A DNA stretch of 64,000 nucleotides from Escherichia phage TH12. Where the stretch lies: the sequence record MT446390.1, one strand, 5' to 3'. A program made the translations under genes and the position numbers. The notes beneath the pieces were generated by a model. That model did no database searches. It was given only the letters and a program-made list of their open reading frames with translations, and had not been told where the DNA came from. This document shows, piece by piece, positions 3,118-59,685 of the stretch (position 1 is its first letter; each line of letters begins with the position of its first letter).

Positions 3118-3372
3118 ATGGCTAAAGTTAGTATTGATGTCGTTGATTACGAATACACCGAAGAAGTTATTCGCAACCGTCACCCTGAAGTTCGTATCGA
3201 TTCAGCCCAAGATTCCAAGTTCTGGACAACTGAGCTTAATCTGAGTGGTCCTTATGAAGCTGTTAAGAAGTTCATGGTTGAAGAATACTGTGAAGGCATG
3301 CACCCCGAAGACGCCAAGTTTTATGTCAATTTGATTAAAAATAATTTACAAACTCTTGAGAGCAGAGTATAA
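3118..3372 (+). CDS. hypothetical protein (84 aa)
   Basis: ATG after AGAGGAG RBS. Confidence 0.55.
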   Translation: MAKVSIDVVDYEYTEEVIRNRHPEVRIDSAQDSKFWTTELNLSGPYEAVKKFMVEEYCEGMHPEDAKFYVNLIKNNLQTLESRV

Positions 3373-9462: not shown

Positions 9463-9951
9463 ATGAATATATTTGAAATGCTTCGTAATGACGAAGGTCT
9501 TAGACTGACTTTATACAAAGACACTGAAGGCTTTTGGACGATTGGCATAGGCCATTTAGTAACAAAGAACCCGTCTTTAGCCGTAGCTAAAGCTGAACTT
9601 GACAGAATGATCGGTCGTAAATGCAACGGTACAATTACCCTTGATGAGGCTGAAAAGCTATTTAATGAAGACGTCGATAAAGCCGTTCGCGGAATCTTGG
9701 GTAATGCTAAACTTAAACCGGTATATGATTCTTTAGACGCGGTTCGTCGATGTGCATTGGTCAATATGGTCTTCCAAATGGGTGTAGCAGGCGTTGCTGG
9801 TTTTACTAATTCTCTTCGTATGCTTCAACAGAAACGTTGGGATGAAGCGGCAGTAAATCTCGCCCAATCTAAATGGTATCGTCAGACACCTAATCGCGCG
9901 AAACGCGTAATCTCAACATTTAAAACAGGAACTTGGAAAGCGTATATATGA
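9463..9951 (+). CDS. e: T4-type lysozyme (endolysin)
   Basis: [15 protein letters not shown]...TGTW, near-identical to T4 lysozyme over full length. Confidence 0.95.
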
Positions 9952-12299: not shown

Positions 12300-12662
12300 A
12301 TGAAAGCATATCAAATTCTTGAAGGCACACACAAAGGCACTATTTATTTTGAAGACGGTACTCAAGCCCGGATTATTGTCTCTAAGACTTTTAAAGAAGA
12401 CGCTATTGTAGACCCGGAAATTTTCTACGGTTTGAATGCCCGTGAAATTGAAATTGAACATCAACCTAAAGTTAAAATTGAAGGTGGTCAACACCTGAAC
12501 GTTAATGTTCTGCGTCGTGAAACTCTGGAAGATGCAGTTAAGCATCCAGAAAAATATCCGCAGTTGACCATCCGTGTATCCGGTTATGCAGTTCGCTTTA
12601 ACTCTCTGACTCCGGAACAGCAGCGTGACGTTATCGCTCGTACCTTTACTGAGAGTCTATAA
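12300..12662 (+). CDS. autonomous glycyl-radical cofactor (GrcA/YfiD-like)
   Basis: C-terminal [25 protein letters not shown] glycyl-radical motif. Confidence 0.8.
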
Positions 12663-16311: not shown

Positions 16312-16524
16312 ATGCAGCAATTAAACGAAAGACAACTTCGTAATCTTACTGTAACCCAATTGGATGAAATCCGAAGAGAATTAGGACATTCTATTTCTCA
16401 TTTAAACGAGGATATCCGTCAAACTGGTTCTAAAGCTGATTATACACGCAAGCGCAAGCTGGAAAAATACCTCACAGATGTTAAGGCCGTCCAAAGGCGA
16501 AAAATAAATACTGGCCAAAATTAA
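16312..16524 (+). CDS. hypothetical basic protein (70 aa)
   Basis: ORF. Confidence 0.5.
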
Positions 16525-17679: not shown

Positions 17680-18210
17680 ATGAAAATTGTAATTGAAACA
17701 ACCGAGTTGTTTGGTGATTTATGTATCGAAAAACGTGGTTATGCTTACGTTCTGACACAAGAAGATGATTCTGTTACTATTCTTCCTATGGAACTGGACA
17801 AGATTTTGAAACTCAATCCACCGGGCCATGCATCTGTAATTAACATTGATGAAGACCTTCAAGTTCGTTTTTATCATGGACTTTATAGTGGGGTTAATAT
17901 CGAAACAGAAGATGAATGCCTTTCTATTAATAATTGGAAAACATTCGTCACTAAAGTGAAAGAATTCATTGAATCTGAAACAGCCAAAAAGGCCAAACTT
18001 CAATGGGCTAAATGCCGTAATGCTTTTATTACAAATCAGGACCGCCCTGACTATACAACGGTCCTAGGCGTTAATCCTTCTTATGAAGATGGCGATGTTG
18101 TAGTTATTCGTCAAATTGATGACCTTCGTCAACATATCGTTACATTAGACAAAGATGAAGCAGTTGCTCTTAAAGCTTATCTTGATTCTATTATCCCAAC
18201 TTTGAAATAA
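17680..18210 (+). CDS. hypothetical protein (176 aa)
   Basis: ATG directly after upstream stop. Confidence 0.55.
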   Translation: MKIVIETTELFGDLCIEKRGYAYVLTQEDDSVTILPMELDKILKLNPPGHASVINIDEDLQVRFYHGLYSGVNIETEDECLSINNWKTFVTKVKEFIESETAKKAKLQWAKCRNAFITNQDRPDYTTVLGVNPSYEDGDVVVIRQIDDLRQHIVTLDKDEAVALKAYLDSIIPTLK

Positions 18211-57857: not shown

Positions 57858-58880
57858 ATGGCTGAATGGATAGATAATGAATTTGCTTATCGTGCGTTTT
57901 CTCACCTCCCTCGTTTTAGACAAATCAATAATTCAAGCACATTTAAATTAACATTTCGTTGTCCAGTTTGTGGCGACTCTCAGACAGATGCAATGAAAGC
58001 CCGCGGATGGTATTATGGCGGTACTCCAGGTAATGTGCATTGCTATAACTGTCAATATCATAATACAATTTCTGGATACTTAAAAGAGTACGATGAAGAG
58101 CTTTATCGCGAGTATCTAATGGAAGTTCGTAAAGAAAAAGCTAGAATGGAACCAAAGATTGAAAAGGTTCCTGAAGCTAAGCCGGAGCCAGAGAAAAAGA
58201 CTATAAATTCTTTGCCGTCTTGTTCTCGTCTGGACAAGTTGCCTGAAGAGCATCCTATTGTGAAATATGTTAAGTCTCGGTGTATTCCTAAAGAATCATG
58301 GAACAGATTATGGTTCACATTAGAATGGCCCAAATTGGTCAACAAGATTCAACCTGGTACGTATAAGAAAGAGATTCCTGAACCGCGTTTAGTGATTCCT
58401 ATTTTTAATAAAGATGGGAAGGCCGAGTCATTCCAAGGACGTGCACTTCGTAAAGATGCTCCTCAGAAATATATCACTATTAAAGCGTTTGAGTCTGCAA
58501 CAAAAATTTATGGTGTTGAACGTGTTAAGGAAGGAGACGTCTGGGTAATGGAAGGTCCTATTGATAGTTTATTCATACCCAATGCAATCGCTATTACAGG
58601 CGGCTCAATAGATTTAGATGTGGTACCATTTAAAGAACGTCGGGTATGGGTAATGGATAATGAACCTAGGCATCCAGATACTATAGCTCGTATGAAGCGA
58701 TTAGTTGATGCAGGCGAACGTGTCATGTTCTGGGACCGAGCTCCATGGAGATCAAAGGATGTGAATGATATGGTAATGAAAGAAAATGCAACACCACAAG
58801 AAATTTTAGAATATATGAAACAGAATATTTCAAGTGGGTTGCATGCTAAAATGAGATTATCTCGTTATTCGAAGATTTAA
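57858..58880 (+). CDS. 61: DNA primase gp61
   Basis: WIDNEFAYRAFSHLPRF ... zinc ribbon CPVCGDS / CYNC; matches T4 gp61. Confidence 0.95.
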   Translation: MAEWIDNEFAYRAFSHLPRFRQINNSSTFKLTFRCPVCGDSQTDAMKARGWYYGGTPGNVHCYNCQYHNTISGYLKEYDEELYREYLMEVRKEKARMEPKIEKVPEAKPEPEKKTINSLPSCSRLDKLPEEHPIVKYVKSRCIPKESWNRLWFTLEWPKLVNKIQPGTYKKEIPEPRLVIPIFNKDGKAESFQGRALRKDAPQKYITIKAFESATKIYGVERVKEGDVWVMEGPIDSLFIPNAIAITGGSIDLDVVPFKERRVWVMDNEPRHPDTIARMKRLVDAGERVMFWDRAPWRSKDVNDMVMKENATPQEILEYMKQNISSGLHAKMRLSRYSKI

Positions 58881-59074
58881 ACAAGCCCTATAATAGCAAA
58901 GGCCAAATCAACTACAGTATCCAATGGAACAGAAGGAACTATAATACCATTAGCAACTAACAATGGTGCAATCCCGAAGTTCCATGAAATAATGCCACCT
59001 ACAACTATTGCAGCGATAGCAGTTTTCTTTTTATTGCCTTTAATAGCGTTGATTAACGATGGAAGTTTAAACAT
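58877..59074 (-). CDS. small hydrophobic membrane protein (65 aa) on the opposite strand
   Basis: AAGGAG 5 nt upstream of ATG on minus strand; sits in an otherwise empty gap. Confidence 0.5.
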   Translation of the reverse strand: MFKLPSLINAIKGNKKKTAIAAIVVGGIISWNFGIAPLLVANGIIVPSVPLDTVVDLAFAIIGLV

Positions 59075-59163
59075 AATATCTCCTTAGTTACCTATTATTT
59101 ATTACGCTTTATAAAATTAATGTTAGAATTAAACTCTCTTACACTGAATTGAAAGGAAAAATA

Positions 59164-59685
59164 ATGGCGCACTTTAACGAATGTTCACAACTTATTTCTG
59201 GTGTTGATAAAGCAGAAGAAGCTTATTTTAATGCTCTGATTCACGAAGATAAAGACCCACTGCAGGTAATGCTTGATATGCAGAAATCTTTACAGGTTCG
59301 TTTGGCAAATGACAAGCCTGAACATAACAAACATCCTGATGAATTGGCTACTGCCGGTGATGTTGTTGATTGGCTGCGTAATCAGAAAGATTATATTGAT
59401 GATGAATTCCGTGAACTGTTGACTTCACTTGGCGGTATGAGCAATGGTGAAAAAGCCGCCAGCAGTGTATGGAAGCCGTGGAAAGCACAACATGCCGAAT
59501 ATCGTAATCGTCGTATCGATGAACTGTCTCCTGAAGACCAGCTTGAAATTAAATTCGAGATGATTGATATCCTCCACTTTGTTCTGAACATGTTCCAAGG
59601 CCTTGGACTTACTGCAGAAGAAATCTTTAAACTTTACTACTTGAAAAACCAACACAACTTTGAACGCCAGGATAATGGTTACTAA
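59164..59685 (+). CDS. 56: dCTP pyrophosphatase gp56-like
   Basis: MAHFNECSQLISGVD... recalled as T4 gp56-like; position. Confidence 0.6.
   Translation: MAHFNECSQLISGVDKAEEAYFNALIHEDKDPLQVMLDMQKSLQVRLANDKPEHNKHPDELATAGDVVDWLRNQKDYIDDEFRELLTSLGGMSNGEKAASSVWKPWKAQHAEYRNRRIDELSPEDQLEIKFEMIDILHFVLNMFQGLGLTAEEIFKLYYLKNQHNFERQDNGY

What the first reader, a model, noticed from the sequence alone, without database searches (positions are those of the whole stretch)
58877..59074. Lone opposite-strand gene: 65-aa hydrophobic protein convergent with primase gene 61
In a window where essentially every gene is on the + strand, the gap between gene 61 and gene 56 has no + strand ORF. It does carry a minus-strand ORF with a strong Shine-Dalgarno (AAGGAG, 5-nt spacing) encoding a small two-helix membrane protein whose stop overlaps the gene 61 stop. 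Small antisense membrane proteins in phages are often holin-like, toxin-like or exclusion factors.
Basis: seen in the sequence. Interest (0 to 1): 0.6.

Follow-up and report, generated by a model that had tools for sequence, protein, structure and literature searches.

The report
Overlooked late membrane-protein gene of T-even phages
The lone reverse-strand ORF after the primase gene is a real, conserved gene for a small membrane protein of T4-like phages; it is probably switched on late in infection, is already catalogued as a protein of unknown function (though missing from the T4 reference annotation), and nothing here shows it is a holin or toxin.

Summary
A 65-aa ATG ORF lies at 58877-59074 (-), with AAGGAG 5 nt upstream and a TTAA stop overlap with gene 61. 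The window is a Mosigvirus (RB69-like). The ORF is RB69ORF029w, PHROG 2024, function unknown. It is a real gene: positional orthologues sit on the opposite strand just after gene 61 in at least seven Tevenvirinae genera or lineages. One is an unannotated 66-aa ORF in the T4 reference. Substitutions follow a coding pattern. A T4 late-promoter motif (NATAAATA or ATTAAATA) lies 12-22 nt before the start codon in all nine operons examined. That motif is strongly depleted elsewhere in the window. AlphaFold gives one membrane-spanning helix (15-41) plus a short C-terminal helix, not a two-TM hairpin. Charge distribution indicates N-in/C-out. There is no Pfam, NCBIfam, PDB or Rfam hit and no bacterial homologue. 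Holin criteria tested here are not met. Frameshifted copies in two viable lab T4-type strains suggest it is dispensable. Best reading: a late, accessory, single-pass inner-membrane (possibly processed or released) protein acting at the envelope. Its exact role is untested. Already catalogued; modest interest.

The parts
58877..59074 (-). CDS of the 65-aa protein (orthologue of RB69ORF029w; PHROG 2024), stop codon included
   Evidence: the ORF listing. PHROG 2024 full-length match, E 1.4e-26. 100% identical to annotated hypothetical proteins of JS09 and other Mosigvirus records. Purifying selection: dN/dS 0.09 against RB69; against T4, differences by codon position are 32/12/41.
59080..59085 (-). 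Shine-Dalgarno AAGGAG, 5 nt before the ATG
   Evidence: Read directly from the sequence. AGGAGG or AAGGAG lies at the same place in all orthologues.
59096..59103 (-). AATAAATA, a T4-type late (gp55) promoter motif, ending 21 nt before the ATG
   Evidence: one of only 3 NATAAATA sites on the minus strand of the 64-kb window (12.1 +/- 3.5 expected). NATAAATA or ATTAAATA lies 12-22 nt upstream of the first gene in all 9 operons compared. A at -13 is the commonest T4 late-promoter variant, and a TA->AT variant also exists (PMC2988020).
59033..59074 (-). Codons 1-14: short amphipathic helix and start of the basic patch KGNKKK (predicted cytoplasmic)
   Evidence: AF2 helix 3-11. Mean net charge of the N-region is +3.8 over 172 family sequences.
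58952..59032 (-). Codons 15-41: the single predicted membrane-spanning helix, with invariant W31-N32 and P37
   Evidence: AF2 helix 15-41, pLDDT 85-90. Hydropathy. Invariant columns.
58880..58951 (-). Codons 42-65: predicted periplasmic tail (H/N-G-x-x-Φ-P...D/E...) with a short helix at 51-62. It is preceded by a P-x-A/L-x-A/T/S motif that resembles a signal-peptidase I site.
   Evidence: -5 is P in 172/172, -3 is A/L/T in 172/172, -1 is A/T/S in 168/172, +2 is G in 169/172. The tail has a mean of 0.2 K/R and 1.6 D/E.
58877..58880 (.). TTAA: overlapping stop codons of the ORF (-) and gene 61 (+)
   Evidence: The same arrangement is found in T4 (L002 3436-3439), Dhakavirus, Kanagawavirus and one Gelderlandvirus.

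Best explanation
This is a real, independently expressed late gene that sits inside the early/middle gene block of T-even phages.

Proposed mechanism:
1. After DNA replication starts, gp55-RNA polymerase initiates just downstream of AATAAATA (59096-59103, minus strand).
2. The short leader carries a strong SD, and the 65-aa product is translated.
3. The product inserts into the inner membrane with its lysine-rich N-terminus in the cytoplasm and one TM helix (about residues 15-41).
4. A roughly 24-residue acidic, hydrophobic tail (residues 42-65) lies on the periplasmic side.
5. The invariant W-N-Φ...P-x-A-x-[ATS]-[HQN]-G-x-x-Φ-P...[D/E] segment at the outer-leaflet/periplasmic boundary is the likely working part, a binding surface for another envelope protein. 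In some relatives the protein is co-translated with a paralogue, which suggests oligomers.
6. It is an accessory factor acting at the cell envelope late in infection. My best guess for the process is tuning of lysis timing or lysis inhibition, or late protection or exclusion at the envelope.

What is shown: the ORF, SD, motif, conservation, purifying selection, family limits and charge asymmetry.
What is inferred: late transcription, membrane insertion and topology, partner binding and the biological process.
For: Gene reality:
- PHROG 2024 full-length hits for all subtypes.
- tblastn hits in 692 phage records.
- Same position and orientation in Tequatrovirus, Mosigvirus, Gaprivervirus, Dhakavirus, Gelderlandvirus, Kanagawavirus and a Klebsiella T-even phage, vB_Kpn_K65_evo1, whose protein clusters with that of JD18.
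- Synonymous sites are saturated (pS about 0.75) while pN is 0.16-0.34. dN/dS is 0.09 against RB69. Third codon positions change most and second positions least.

Late expression:
[quoted passage not shown] 9 of 50 T4 late promoters have A at -13, and a TA->AT variant exists (PMC2988020).
- NATAAATA is depleted in the window: 7 against 18.1 +/- 4.6 expected on the + strand, and 3 against 12.1 +/- 3.5 on the - strand.
- Most of the + strand sites (five of the seven in my reading) sit before genes with an SD. From the translated starts I take four of these to be the lysozyme gene e, rI, gene 49 and soc; only rI and soc were checked against an annotation or translation.
- One of the three minus-strand sites is 21 nt before this ATG.
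- A motif is present in all 9 operons although the surrounding intergenic DNA is not alignable.
- No sigma-70-like promoter was found on that strand.
- A hairpin follows the ORF in L005 (-14 kcal/mol, z -3.9), and a terminator-like site follows it in the Klebsiella phage.

Membrane protein and topology:
- AF2 mean pLDDT 83.5, with helix 15-41.
- Hydropathy.
- N-region net charge +3.8, against a tail with 0.2 K/R and 1.6 D/E, across 172 sequences.

Possible oligomer: a B-A tandem pair with an 8-nt start/stop overlap in ESCO47 and L005.

Accessory role: the deposited genomes of the viable genome-reduced T4_583L (burst 109 against 120; PMC9825161) and of T4_ev240 carry frameshifts in the ORF.
Against: - No transcript, ribosome or protein data were available, so late timing and translation are inferred from sequence rules.
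- The window's motif is the AATAAATA variant, not the perfect TATAAATA. The review warns that not all listed T4 late-promoter sites are proven active.
- Topology rests on AF2 and charge bias. No dedicated TM or signal-peptide predictor was available.
- The biological process (lysis or exclusion) has no direct support. There is no homology to T, RI (hhalign probability 0.25%) or any named family.
- The frameshifts in the lab strains could be sequencing errors.
Confidence: 0.55

Rival explanations
1. It is a holin, pinholin or membrane toxin. It would accumulate in the inner membrane late and permeabilise it, triggering or contributing to lysis.
For: It is small, hydrophobic and probably late-expressed. 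One orthologue carries the UniRef name 'Holin'. Tandem paralogue pairs recall two-component holin or holin-antiholin pairs.
Against: - There is no charged hydrophilic C-terminal domain. The protein ends ...AFAIIGLV, and the tail averages 0.2 K/R.
- Only one bilayer-spanning helix is predicted.
- It is not adjacent to an endolysin or lysis cassette. From established knowledge, T-even phages already use holin T with RI and RIII.
- There is no match to any holin family in Pfam or NCBIfam.
- The 'Holin' name is unverified, and RefSeq calls the same protein hypothetical.
- Disrupted copies occur in viable lab phages with near-normal burst.
Confidence: 0.1
2. The hydrophobic segment is not a permanent anchor. 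It would be a long signal peptide cleaved by signal peptidase I after residue 41, or a signal-anchor-release domain like that of T4 RI. The active species would then be a roughly 24-residue acidic, hydrophobic periplasmic peptide, or the released whole protein.
For: Across 172 family sequences the motif before the tail obeys the (-3,-1) rule, with a helix-breaking Pro at -5:
- P at -5 in 172/172
- A/L/T at -3 in 172/172
- A/T/S at -1 in 168/172
- a polar residue at +1 and G at +2
A basic n-region precedes it. In Mosigvirus the helix is rich in Gly and Ala. From established knowledge, the T4 RI N-terminus was likewise predicted to be cleaved but is a SAR domain.
Against: - The uncharged stretch from the last K/R to position -1 is 21-24 residues. 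That is long for a signal-peptide h+c region and typical of a stable TM helix.
- T at -1 (46/172) is a poor SPase I residue.
- The sequence after the site stays hydrophobic.
- AF2 models a continuous helix through residue 41.
- No signal-peptide predictor was available, and there is no homology to RI.
Confidence: 0.15
3. The protein is a late superinfection-exclusion or anti-defence factor. It would block DNA entry by secondary phages, or neutralise a host membrane-associated abortive-infection system.
For: - It lies in a region dense in exclusion and anti-defence genes: imm, sp, dmd and an AdfA-like gene.
- It is confined to enterobacterial Tevenvirinae and diversifies quickly into subtypes, with gain and loss of a paralogue. 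That pattern is common for host-interface genes.
- It appears dispensable in laboratory hosts.
Against: - The known T4 exclusion and anti-defence genes in this block are early genes on the other strand, whereas this one carries a late promoter.
- Its position is fixed and it is retained across genera, unlike typical hyperplastic-region cargo.
- PADLOC was not scanned.
- There is no functional evidence.
Confidence: 0.15
4. The functional product is the late antisense RNA rather than the protein. Transcription from the late promoter would run into gene 61 and down-regulate primase or early mRNA late in infection.
For: In the window and in T4 no terminator-like hairpin follows the ORF. A late transcript would therefore continue antisense into gene 61. 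T4 is known to transcribe both strands at several sites at different times.
Against: - The reading frame is kept, with a coding substitution pattern, over saturated synonymous divergence.
- SD and ATG are conserved.
- In L005 and the Klebsiella phage a hairpin or terminator separates the ORF from gene 61, so read-through is not a conserved feature.
- There is no Rfam match.
Confidence: 0.05
5. It is a chance ORF in an intergenic spacer and not a gene.
For: Antisense ORFs of this size are common in this AT-rich genome. The T4 reference annotation does not list the orthologue.
Against: Searches show a full-length family, conserved position, purifying selection, and conserved SD and promoter motif.
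Confidence: 0.02

Closest known systems
PHROG 2024 / RB69ORF029w (NP_861719) and its orthologues annotated as 'hypothetical protein' in T-even genomes
   Same: Same family and same gene. Full-length HMM match E 1.4e-26. 97% identical to RB69ORF029w and 100% identical to the JS09 protein. Same position and orientation after gene 61.
   Different: Nothing differs. The family has no assigned function. The T4 reference NC_000866 does not annotate its copy (17738-17938).
T4 RI antiholin (SAR-domain periplasmic lysis-inhibition protein)
   Same: Both are small T-even proteins with a basic N-terminus followed by one hydrophobic helix ending in a signal-peptidase-like motif. Both are preceded by a late-type promoter; the window's rI has AATAAATA at 16503. 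Both have a periplasm-facing C-terminal part.
   Different: There is no detectable homology (hhalign probability 0.25%). RI has a globular periplasmic domain of about 70 aa that binds holin T, whereas this protein has only about 24 hydrophobic or acidic residues. Membrane release or cleavage is untested.
Small holins and pinholins (e.g. T7 gp17.5, phage 21 S21)
   Same: Size of 60-70 aa, hydrophobic, late expression.
   Different: Holins have a charged cytoplasmic C-terminal tail and are linked to an endolysin. This protein has its charges at the N-terminus, ends in hydrophobic residues, has one full TM helix and sits after the primase gene. T-even phages already have holin T. There is no family match.
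Small single-pass membrane regulators (e.g. E. coli MgrB; phage HK97 gp15 exclusion protein)
   Same: Architecture only: N-in/C-out orientation, a short conserved periplasmic or juxtamembrane segment, and action by binding a larger membrane protein. This resemblance is recalled from general knowledge and was not tested.
   Different: There is no sequence relationship, and no partner is known for the phage protein.
T4 Imm and Sp (neighbouring exclusion genes)
   Same: Envelope-located small proteins encoded a few kb away in the same block.
   Different: They are early or middle genes on the opposite strand. Imm has two TM helices and Sp is a cleaved periplasmic protein. No similarity was found.

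Membership tests
PHROG 2024 (unknown function) | Significant full-length match to the family HMM | tested here: met
   E 1.4e-26, residues 1-65 on profile positions 1-65 of 65. The T4, CJ20, Dhakavirus, Gelderlandvirus, Klebsiella-phage and L005-paralogue proteins all hit the same PHROG, E 1e-20 to 1e-31.
PHROG 2024 (unknown function) | Conserved genomic position: opposite strand, immediately downstream of primase gene 61 | tested here: met
   Absent at that position in Slopekvirus, Krischvirus, Tulanevirus, Lazarusvirus, Pseudotevenvirus and JC221.
T4-type late gene | TATAAATA-type (gp55) promoter element shortly upstream, with no -35 element needed | tested here: met
   AATAAATA at 59096-59103, 21 nt before the ATG. 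It is the commonest natural variant. It is conserved in 9 of 9 operons as NATAAATA or ATTAAATA. The motif is 2.5- to 4-fold depleted elsewhere in the window.
T4-type late gene | Transcription dependent on gp55/gp33/gp45 and on DNA replication | not testable with these tools
   Needs RNA data from wild-type and gene 55 amber infections.
Holin | At least one transmembrane domain in a small protein | tested here: met
   AF2 helix 15-41 and hydropathy. This is a prediction only.
Holin | Hydrophilic, highly charged C-terminal domain | tested here: not met
   The C-terminus is ...DLAFAIIGLV. The tail has a mean of 0.2 K/R across 172 family sequences.
Holin | Genetic linkage to an endolysin or lysis cassette | tested here: not met
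   The neighbours are primase gene 61 and dCTPase gene 56. The lysozyme gene lies about 49 kb away, near 9463.
Holin | Lethal, timed permeabilisation of the inner membrane that releases endolysin | not testable with these tools
   Requires expression and complementation experiments.
Sec signal peptide / SAR domain protein | n-h-c organisation with small residues at -3 and -1 (cleaved), or a weakly hydrophobic Gly/Ala-rich releasable helix (SAR) | tested here: inconclusive
   The (-3,-1) pattern and Pro at -5 are conserved. However, the uncharged span is 21-24 residues and remains hydrophobic after the site. No predictor or experiment was available.
Type I toxin-antitoxin | Small hydrophobic toxin ORF paired with a dedicated antisense regulatory RNA | tested here: inconclusive
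   There is no Rfam match in 58600-59300. The only antisense RNA expected is the early 61-to-56 read-through transcript. No dedicated sRNA is evident, and toxicity is untested.

The most novel reading that the evidence does not exclude
This is an overlooked T-even late gene, absent from the T4 reference annotation. Its product would be secreted, either by signal-peptidase cleavage or by SAR-type release, as a roughly 24-residue acidic hydrophobic periplasmic peptide or small protein. It would form an unrecognised component of the T-even lysis-timing, lysis-inhibition or superinfection circuitry, acting with holin T/RI or with Sp/Imm at the periplasmic face of the inner membrane.
Probability: 0.1. 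Interest if true: 0.65.

Novelty: already known. Interest (0 to 1): 0.3.

Why it matters
T4 is among the most thoroughly annotated viruses. Even so, its reference record leaves a 309-bp 'intergenic' gap between dam and gene 61. That gap holds a conserved, SD-preceded, late-promoter-preceded ORF shared by Tevenvirinae genera. If the protein is made, T-even phages have an additional late envelope protein that none of the lysis, lysis-inhibition, exclusion or assembly models include. It would be cheap to test in T4 or RB69. If a knockout shows no phenotype, it remains one more accessory ORF. Either way, the T4 reference annotation should carry it.

Tried and rejected
- Pfam, NCBIfam, PDB sequence and Rfam searches gave nothing.
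- Foldseek against BFVD returned only family members. The AFDB library was unavailable.
- The exhaustive profile search of 1.84 billion representatives gave only 6 hits. The word-indexed profile search gave 90 hits. All named hits are T-even-type phage proteins, the complete contigs among them are 156-175 kb, and no hit is bacterial or carries an informative name.
- Homology to T4 RI was suspected from FILSP/FVLSP in T4. It was rejected: hhalign probability is 0.25%, and the RB69-type RI lacks the shared string.
- Nine literature searches found no paper on this ORF. The Miller 2003 T4 genome review was not held.
- The LIN review lists no unassigned r gene that could map here; rIV is sp.
- Names attached to family members in UniRef and NCBI ('Holin', 'dCTP pyrophosphatase', 'DNA packaging ATPase') were treated as annotation spill-over from neighbours or as unverified labels.
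- The idea that old 'gene 69' (a membrane-associated replication protein near oriA) corresponds to this ORF was dropped. From memory, gene 69 became segF, which lies on the other side of gene 56.
Full report
**What the window is**

Megablast of 58600-59400 finds 425 phage records. The best are Mosigvirus (RB69-like T-even coliphages) at 98.6-99.0% identity. In p000v the gene order around the finding is imm, sp, three hypothetical genes, gene 61 (primase), a small minus-strand CDS, gene 56 (dCTPase), soc, mrh, modA.

**The observation**

- The ORF listing gives a 65-aa ATG ORF at 58877..59074 on the minus strand.
- The sequence shows AAGGAG at 59080-59085, five bases before the ATG.
- It also shows TTAA at 58877-58880, in which the ORF's stop and the gene 61 stop overlap.
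- Between gene 61 and the gene 56 ATG (59164) the + strand has only a 31-aa ORF.
- In p000v, every annotated feature across the stretch equivalent to the window is on the + strand except this CDS, gp151.

The description is therefore correct. An antisense ORF of this length is not remarkable in itself, since 13 minus-strand ORFs of at least 100 aa exist in the window. The case rests on what follows.

**It is a gene**

The protein matches PHROG 2024 (function unknown) over its whole length, E 1.4e-26. It has no Pfam or NCBIfam match. tblastn finds it in 692 phage records. It is RB69ORF029w.

A 66-aa orthologue (52% identity) lies in T4 at NC_000866 17738-17938. That is inside the 309-bp stretch between dam and gene 61 that the reference record leaves unannotated, and it shows the same TTAA stop overlap with gene 61. 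The exact T4 sequence is absent from NCBI and UniRef protein sets in the collection. Orthologues in RB14/RB51-type and many newer genomes are listed as hypothetical proteins.

Positional orthologues lie on the opposite strand directly after gene 61 in:
- Gaprivervirus CJ20
- Dhakavirus
- the Klebsiella T-even phage vB_Kpn_K65_evo1, whose protein clusters with that of JD18
- two Gelderlandvirus phages
- Kanagawavirus
- a 173-kb metagenomic T-even contig

All of these fall in PHROG 2024. At the same position the gene is absent from Slopekvirus, Krischvirus, Tulanevirus, Lazarusvirus, Pseudotevenvirus and phage JC221, where gene 61 is followed directly by a same-strand gene: gene 56 in four of them, other genes in Tulanevirus and Lazarusvirus. 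An exhaustive profile search of 1.84 billion representatives gave 6 hits. A profile search of the 5.8-billion set gave 90. All named hits are T-even-type phage proteins, and none is bacterial or informatively named.

Codon-level comparison shows purifying selection:

| Comparison | Result |
|---|---|
| Window vs RB69 | dN/dS 0.09 |
| Window vs T4 | pS 0.75 (saturated), pN 0.34 |
| Differences by codon position (window vs T4) | 32 / 12 / 41 |

Because the ORF overlaps gene 61 by only 4 nt, this constraint cannot come from a gene on the other strand.

**Two subtypes and a tandem pair**

- Type A: KL..L..AIKGNKK ... LDT.VDLAFA..GL (T4, RB69, the window, CJ20).
- Type B: FYQIWKLA.K ... E.H.LSI (Dhakavirus, the Gelderlandvirus phage SEA1).
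- Further variants occur in Klebsiella, Kanagawavirus and Proteus phages.

These share invariant W31, N32, P37, P47 and G63 and near-invariant G43. In the Mosigvirus ESCO47 and in contig L005, B and A sit in tandem with an 8-nt ATGCTTAA stop/start overlap. That implies coupled translation and possibly a hetero-oligomer. The window's phage has only A.

**Timing**

[quoted passage not shown] Of 50 listed late promoters, 32 are perfect TATAAATA, nine have A at -13, and one exception is a TA->AT change (PMC2988020).

On the ORF's strand AATAAATA lies at 59096-59103, ending 21 nt before the ATG. NATAAATA is strongly depleted in the window:

| Strand | Observed | Expected from dinucleotide shuffles |
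|---|---|---|
| + | 7 | 18.1 +/- 4.6 |
| - | 3 | 12.1 +/- 3.5 |

Most of the + strand sites (five of seven in my reading) sit just upstream of SD-preceded genes. Judging from the translated starts, four are the lysozyme gene e, rI, gene 49 and soc; rI and soc were checked against translation or annotation, and the other two identities are inferred.

The equivalent motif lies 12-22 nt before the first start codon in all nine operons compared, although the surrounding intergenic DNA is not alignable:

| Lineage | Motif |
|---|---|
| T4 | GATAAATA |
| CJ20, L005, Klebsiella phage | CATAAATA |
| Dhakavirus, Kanagawavirus | perfect TATAAATA |
| both Gelderlandvirus | ATTAAATA |

No sigma-70-type promoter was found on this strand. 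After the ORF, L005 has a stable hairpin followed by a U-run (-14 kcal/mol, z -3.9). The Klebsiella phage has a terminator-like site. The window and T4 have none, so there the late transcript probably continues antisense into gene 61. I conclude that this is a late gene, by inference from sequence rules. No RNA data were available.

**The protein**

AlphaFold2 with a 16-sequence alignment gives mean pLDDT 83.5, with helices 3-11, 15-41 and 51-62. Only the 27-residue helix can span a bilayer.

Over 172 distinct family sequences:
- the N-region has mean net charge +3.8;
- the 24-residue C-tail has 0.2 K/R and 1.6 D/E on average;
- the uncharged span from the last K/R to the residue before the conserved G is 21-24 residues.

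By the positive-inside rule this gives N-in/C-out.

The end of the helix carries a conserved P(-5)-x-A/L(-3)-x-A/T/S(-1) | H/Q/N-G motif. P is in 172/172, A/L/T at -3 in 172/172, small residues at -1 in 168/172, and G at +2 in 169/172. This fits the signal-peptidase I (-3,-1) rule, so cleavage or SAR-type release is a live alternative. The length and hydrophobicity of the span argue for a stable anchor. I could not run a signal-peptide predictor.

**Function**

Nothing named resembles it.
- PDB sequence search returns only noise, E at least 0.3.
- BFVD Foldseek finds only family members.
- hhalign against T4 RI gives probability 0.25%.

One orthologue is called 'Holin' in UniRef, but RefSeq calls the same protein hypothetical. 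Other stray names in the family ('dCTP pyrophosphatase', 'DNA packaging ATPase') are evidently mislabels.

Against the usual holin criteria it has a TM domain. It lacks a charged C-terminal tail and is not linked to a lysis gene, and T-even phages already have T, RI and RIII. I therefore do not file it as a holin.

Two laboratory T4-type genomes carry frameshifts in the ORF:
- T4_583L is a viable CRISPR genome-reduced mutant with burst 109 against 120 for wild type (PMC9825161). It has a 2-nt deletion after codon 22 plus a 4-nt deletion between SD and ATG.
- T4_ev240 has a 1-nt deletion after codon 16.

If these are not sequencing errors, the gene is dispensable in laboratory culture. That argues against an essential assembly role and for an accessory one.

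**Most likely mechanism**

A gp55-dependent late transcript yields a strongly translated small N-in/C-out inner-membrane protein. Its invariant outer-leaflet and periplasmic motif binds another envelope component, and in some phages it acts together with a paralogue. It modulates a late envelope event. My preference is lysis timing, lysis-inhibition stability, or late protection or exclusion.

| Claim | My confidence |
|---|---|
| Gene / late / membrane core | about 0.8-0.85 |
| Specific envelope-accessory role | much lower |
| Combined statement | 0.55 |

**Novelty and score**

The ORF is already catalogued (RB69ORF029w; PHROG 2024; hundreds of 'hypothetical protein' entries), so the feature itself is already known. 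This analysis adds several points:
- the reference T4 record omits its orthologue;
- within the Straboviridae genera sampled the gene was found only in Tevenvirinae, at a fixed position;
- it carries a conserved late promoter in an otherwise early block;
- it has one TM helix and a signal-peptidase-like motif;
- it exists as A and B paralogues.

Interest is 0.3. It is a tidy, testable orphan gene in a model phage, with nothing yet that would surprise a specialist.

Noticed in passing
L002 3239-3439 (NC_000866.4 17738-17938, + strand): The T4 reference annotation has no feature in the 309-bp dam/gene 61 gap. The gap nevertheless holds a 66-aa orthologue of this ORF, preceded by GATAAATA and AAGGAGG, with its stop overlapping the gene 61 stop in TTAA.
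   Followed up: yes
L005 2805-3198; L021 505-898 (ESCO47): These carry a tandem operon of two diverged paralogues (type B, 67 aa, then type A, 65 aa) with an 8-nt ATGCTTAA stop/start overlap. The late-promoter motif precedes B in L005; the DNA upstream of B in ESCO47 (L021) was not read. The window's phage has only A; Dhakavirus and the Gelderlandvirus phage SEA1 have only B.
   Followed up: partly
L004 about 3207-3290 (CJ20, downstream of its type A gene): The 118-bp gap between the CJ20 ORF and gene 61 reads ...FYQIWKLTSKKDKK... in one frame after an ATG-TGA. This looks like a decayed remnant of a type B paralogue, here downstream rather than upstream of A.
   Followed up: no
window, whole; motif sites at + 1753, 9431, 11095, 16280, 16503, 27201, 59692 and - 59096-59103, 12341-12348, 1086-1093: NATAAATA is 2.5- to 4-fold depleted on both strands relative to dinucleotide shuffles. 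Most + strand copies sit just upstream of SD-preceded genes (e, the rI region, gene 49 and soc, judged mostly from the translated starts). This is consistent with selection against spurious late promoters. The minus-strand copies at 12341 and 1086 are not followed by an SD or ORF and could be antisense late starts.
   Followed up: partly
window 59106-59129 (+): cGCTTTA, then 12 nt, then TAGAAT preceded by TG resembles a MotA-dependent middle promoter for gene 56. It lies back-to-back with the minus-strand late-promoter motif at 59096-59103. In T4 the gene 56 transcript primes origin oriA (note in the NC_000866 record). Whether this Mosigvirus spacer is an origin was not examined.
   Followed up: no
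L020 about 592-790 (T4_583L, MZ375356); L019 about 509-708 (T4_ev240, LR597657): Two laboratory-derived T4-type genomes have frameshifting deletions inside the ORF. T4_583L also has a 4-nt deletion in the SD-ATG spacer. T4_583L is a viable large-plaque genome-reduced mutant with near-normal burst. The deletions could be real (gene dispensable) or assembly errors.
   Followed up: partly
family members P0099, P0075, P0162, P0032: Public names attached to orthologues are inconsistent and evidently wrong or unverified: 'dCTP pyrophosphatase' (the name of the neighbouring gene), 'DNA packaging ATPase' and 'Holin'.
   Followed up: partly
L005 3199-3226; L009 2518-2531: In lineages where the ORF does not overlap gene 61, a GC-rich hairpin sits between the convergent genes (L005: -14 kcal/mol, z -3.9). 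The window and T4 have no such structure, so convergent transcription there is probably unterminated.
   Followed up: partly
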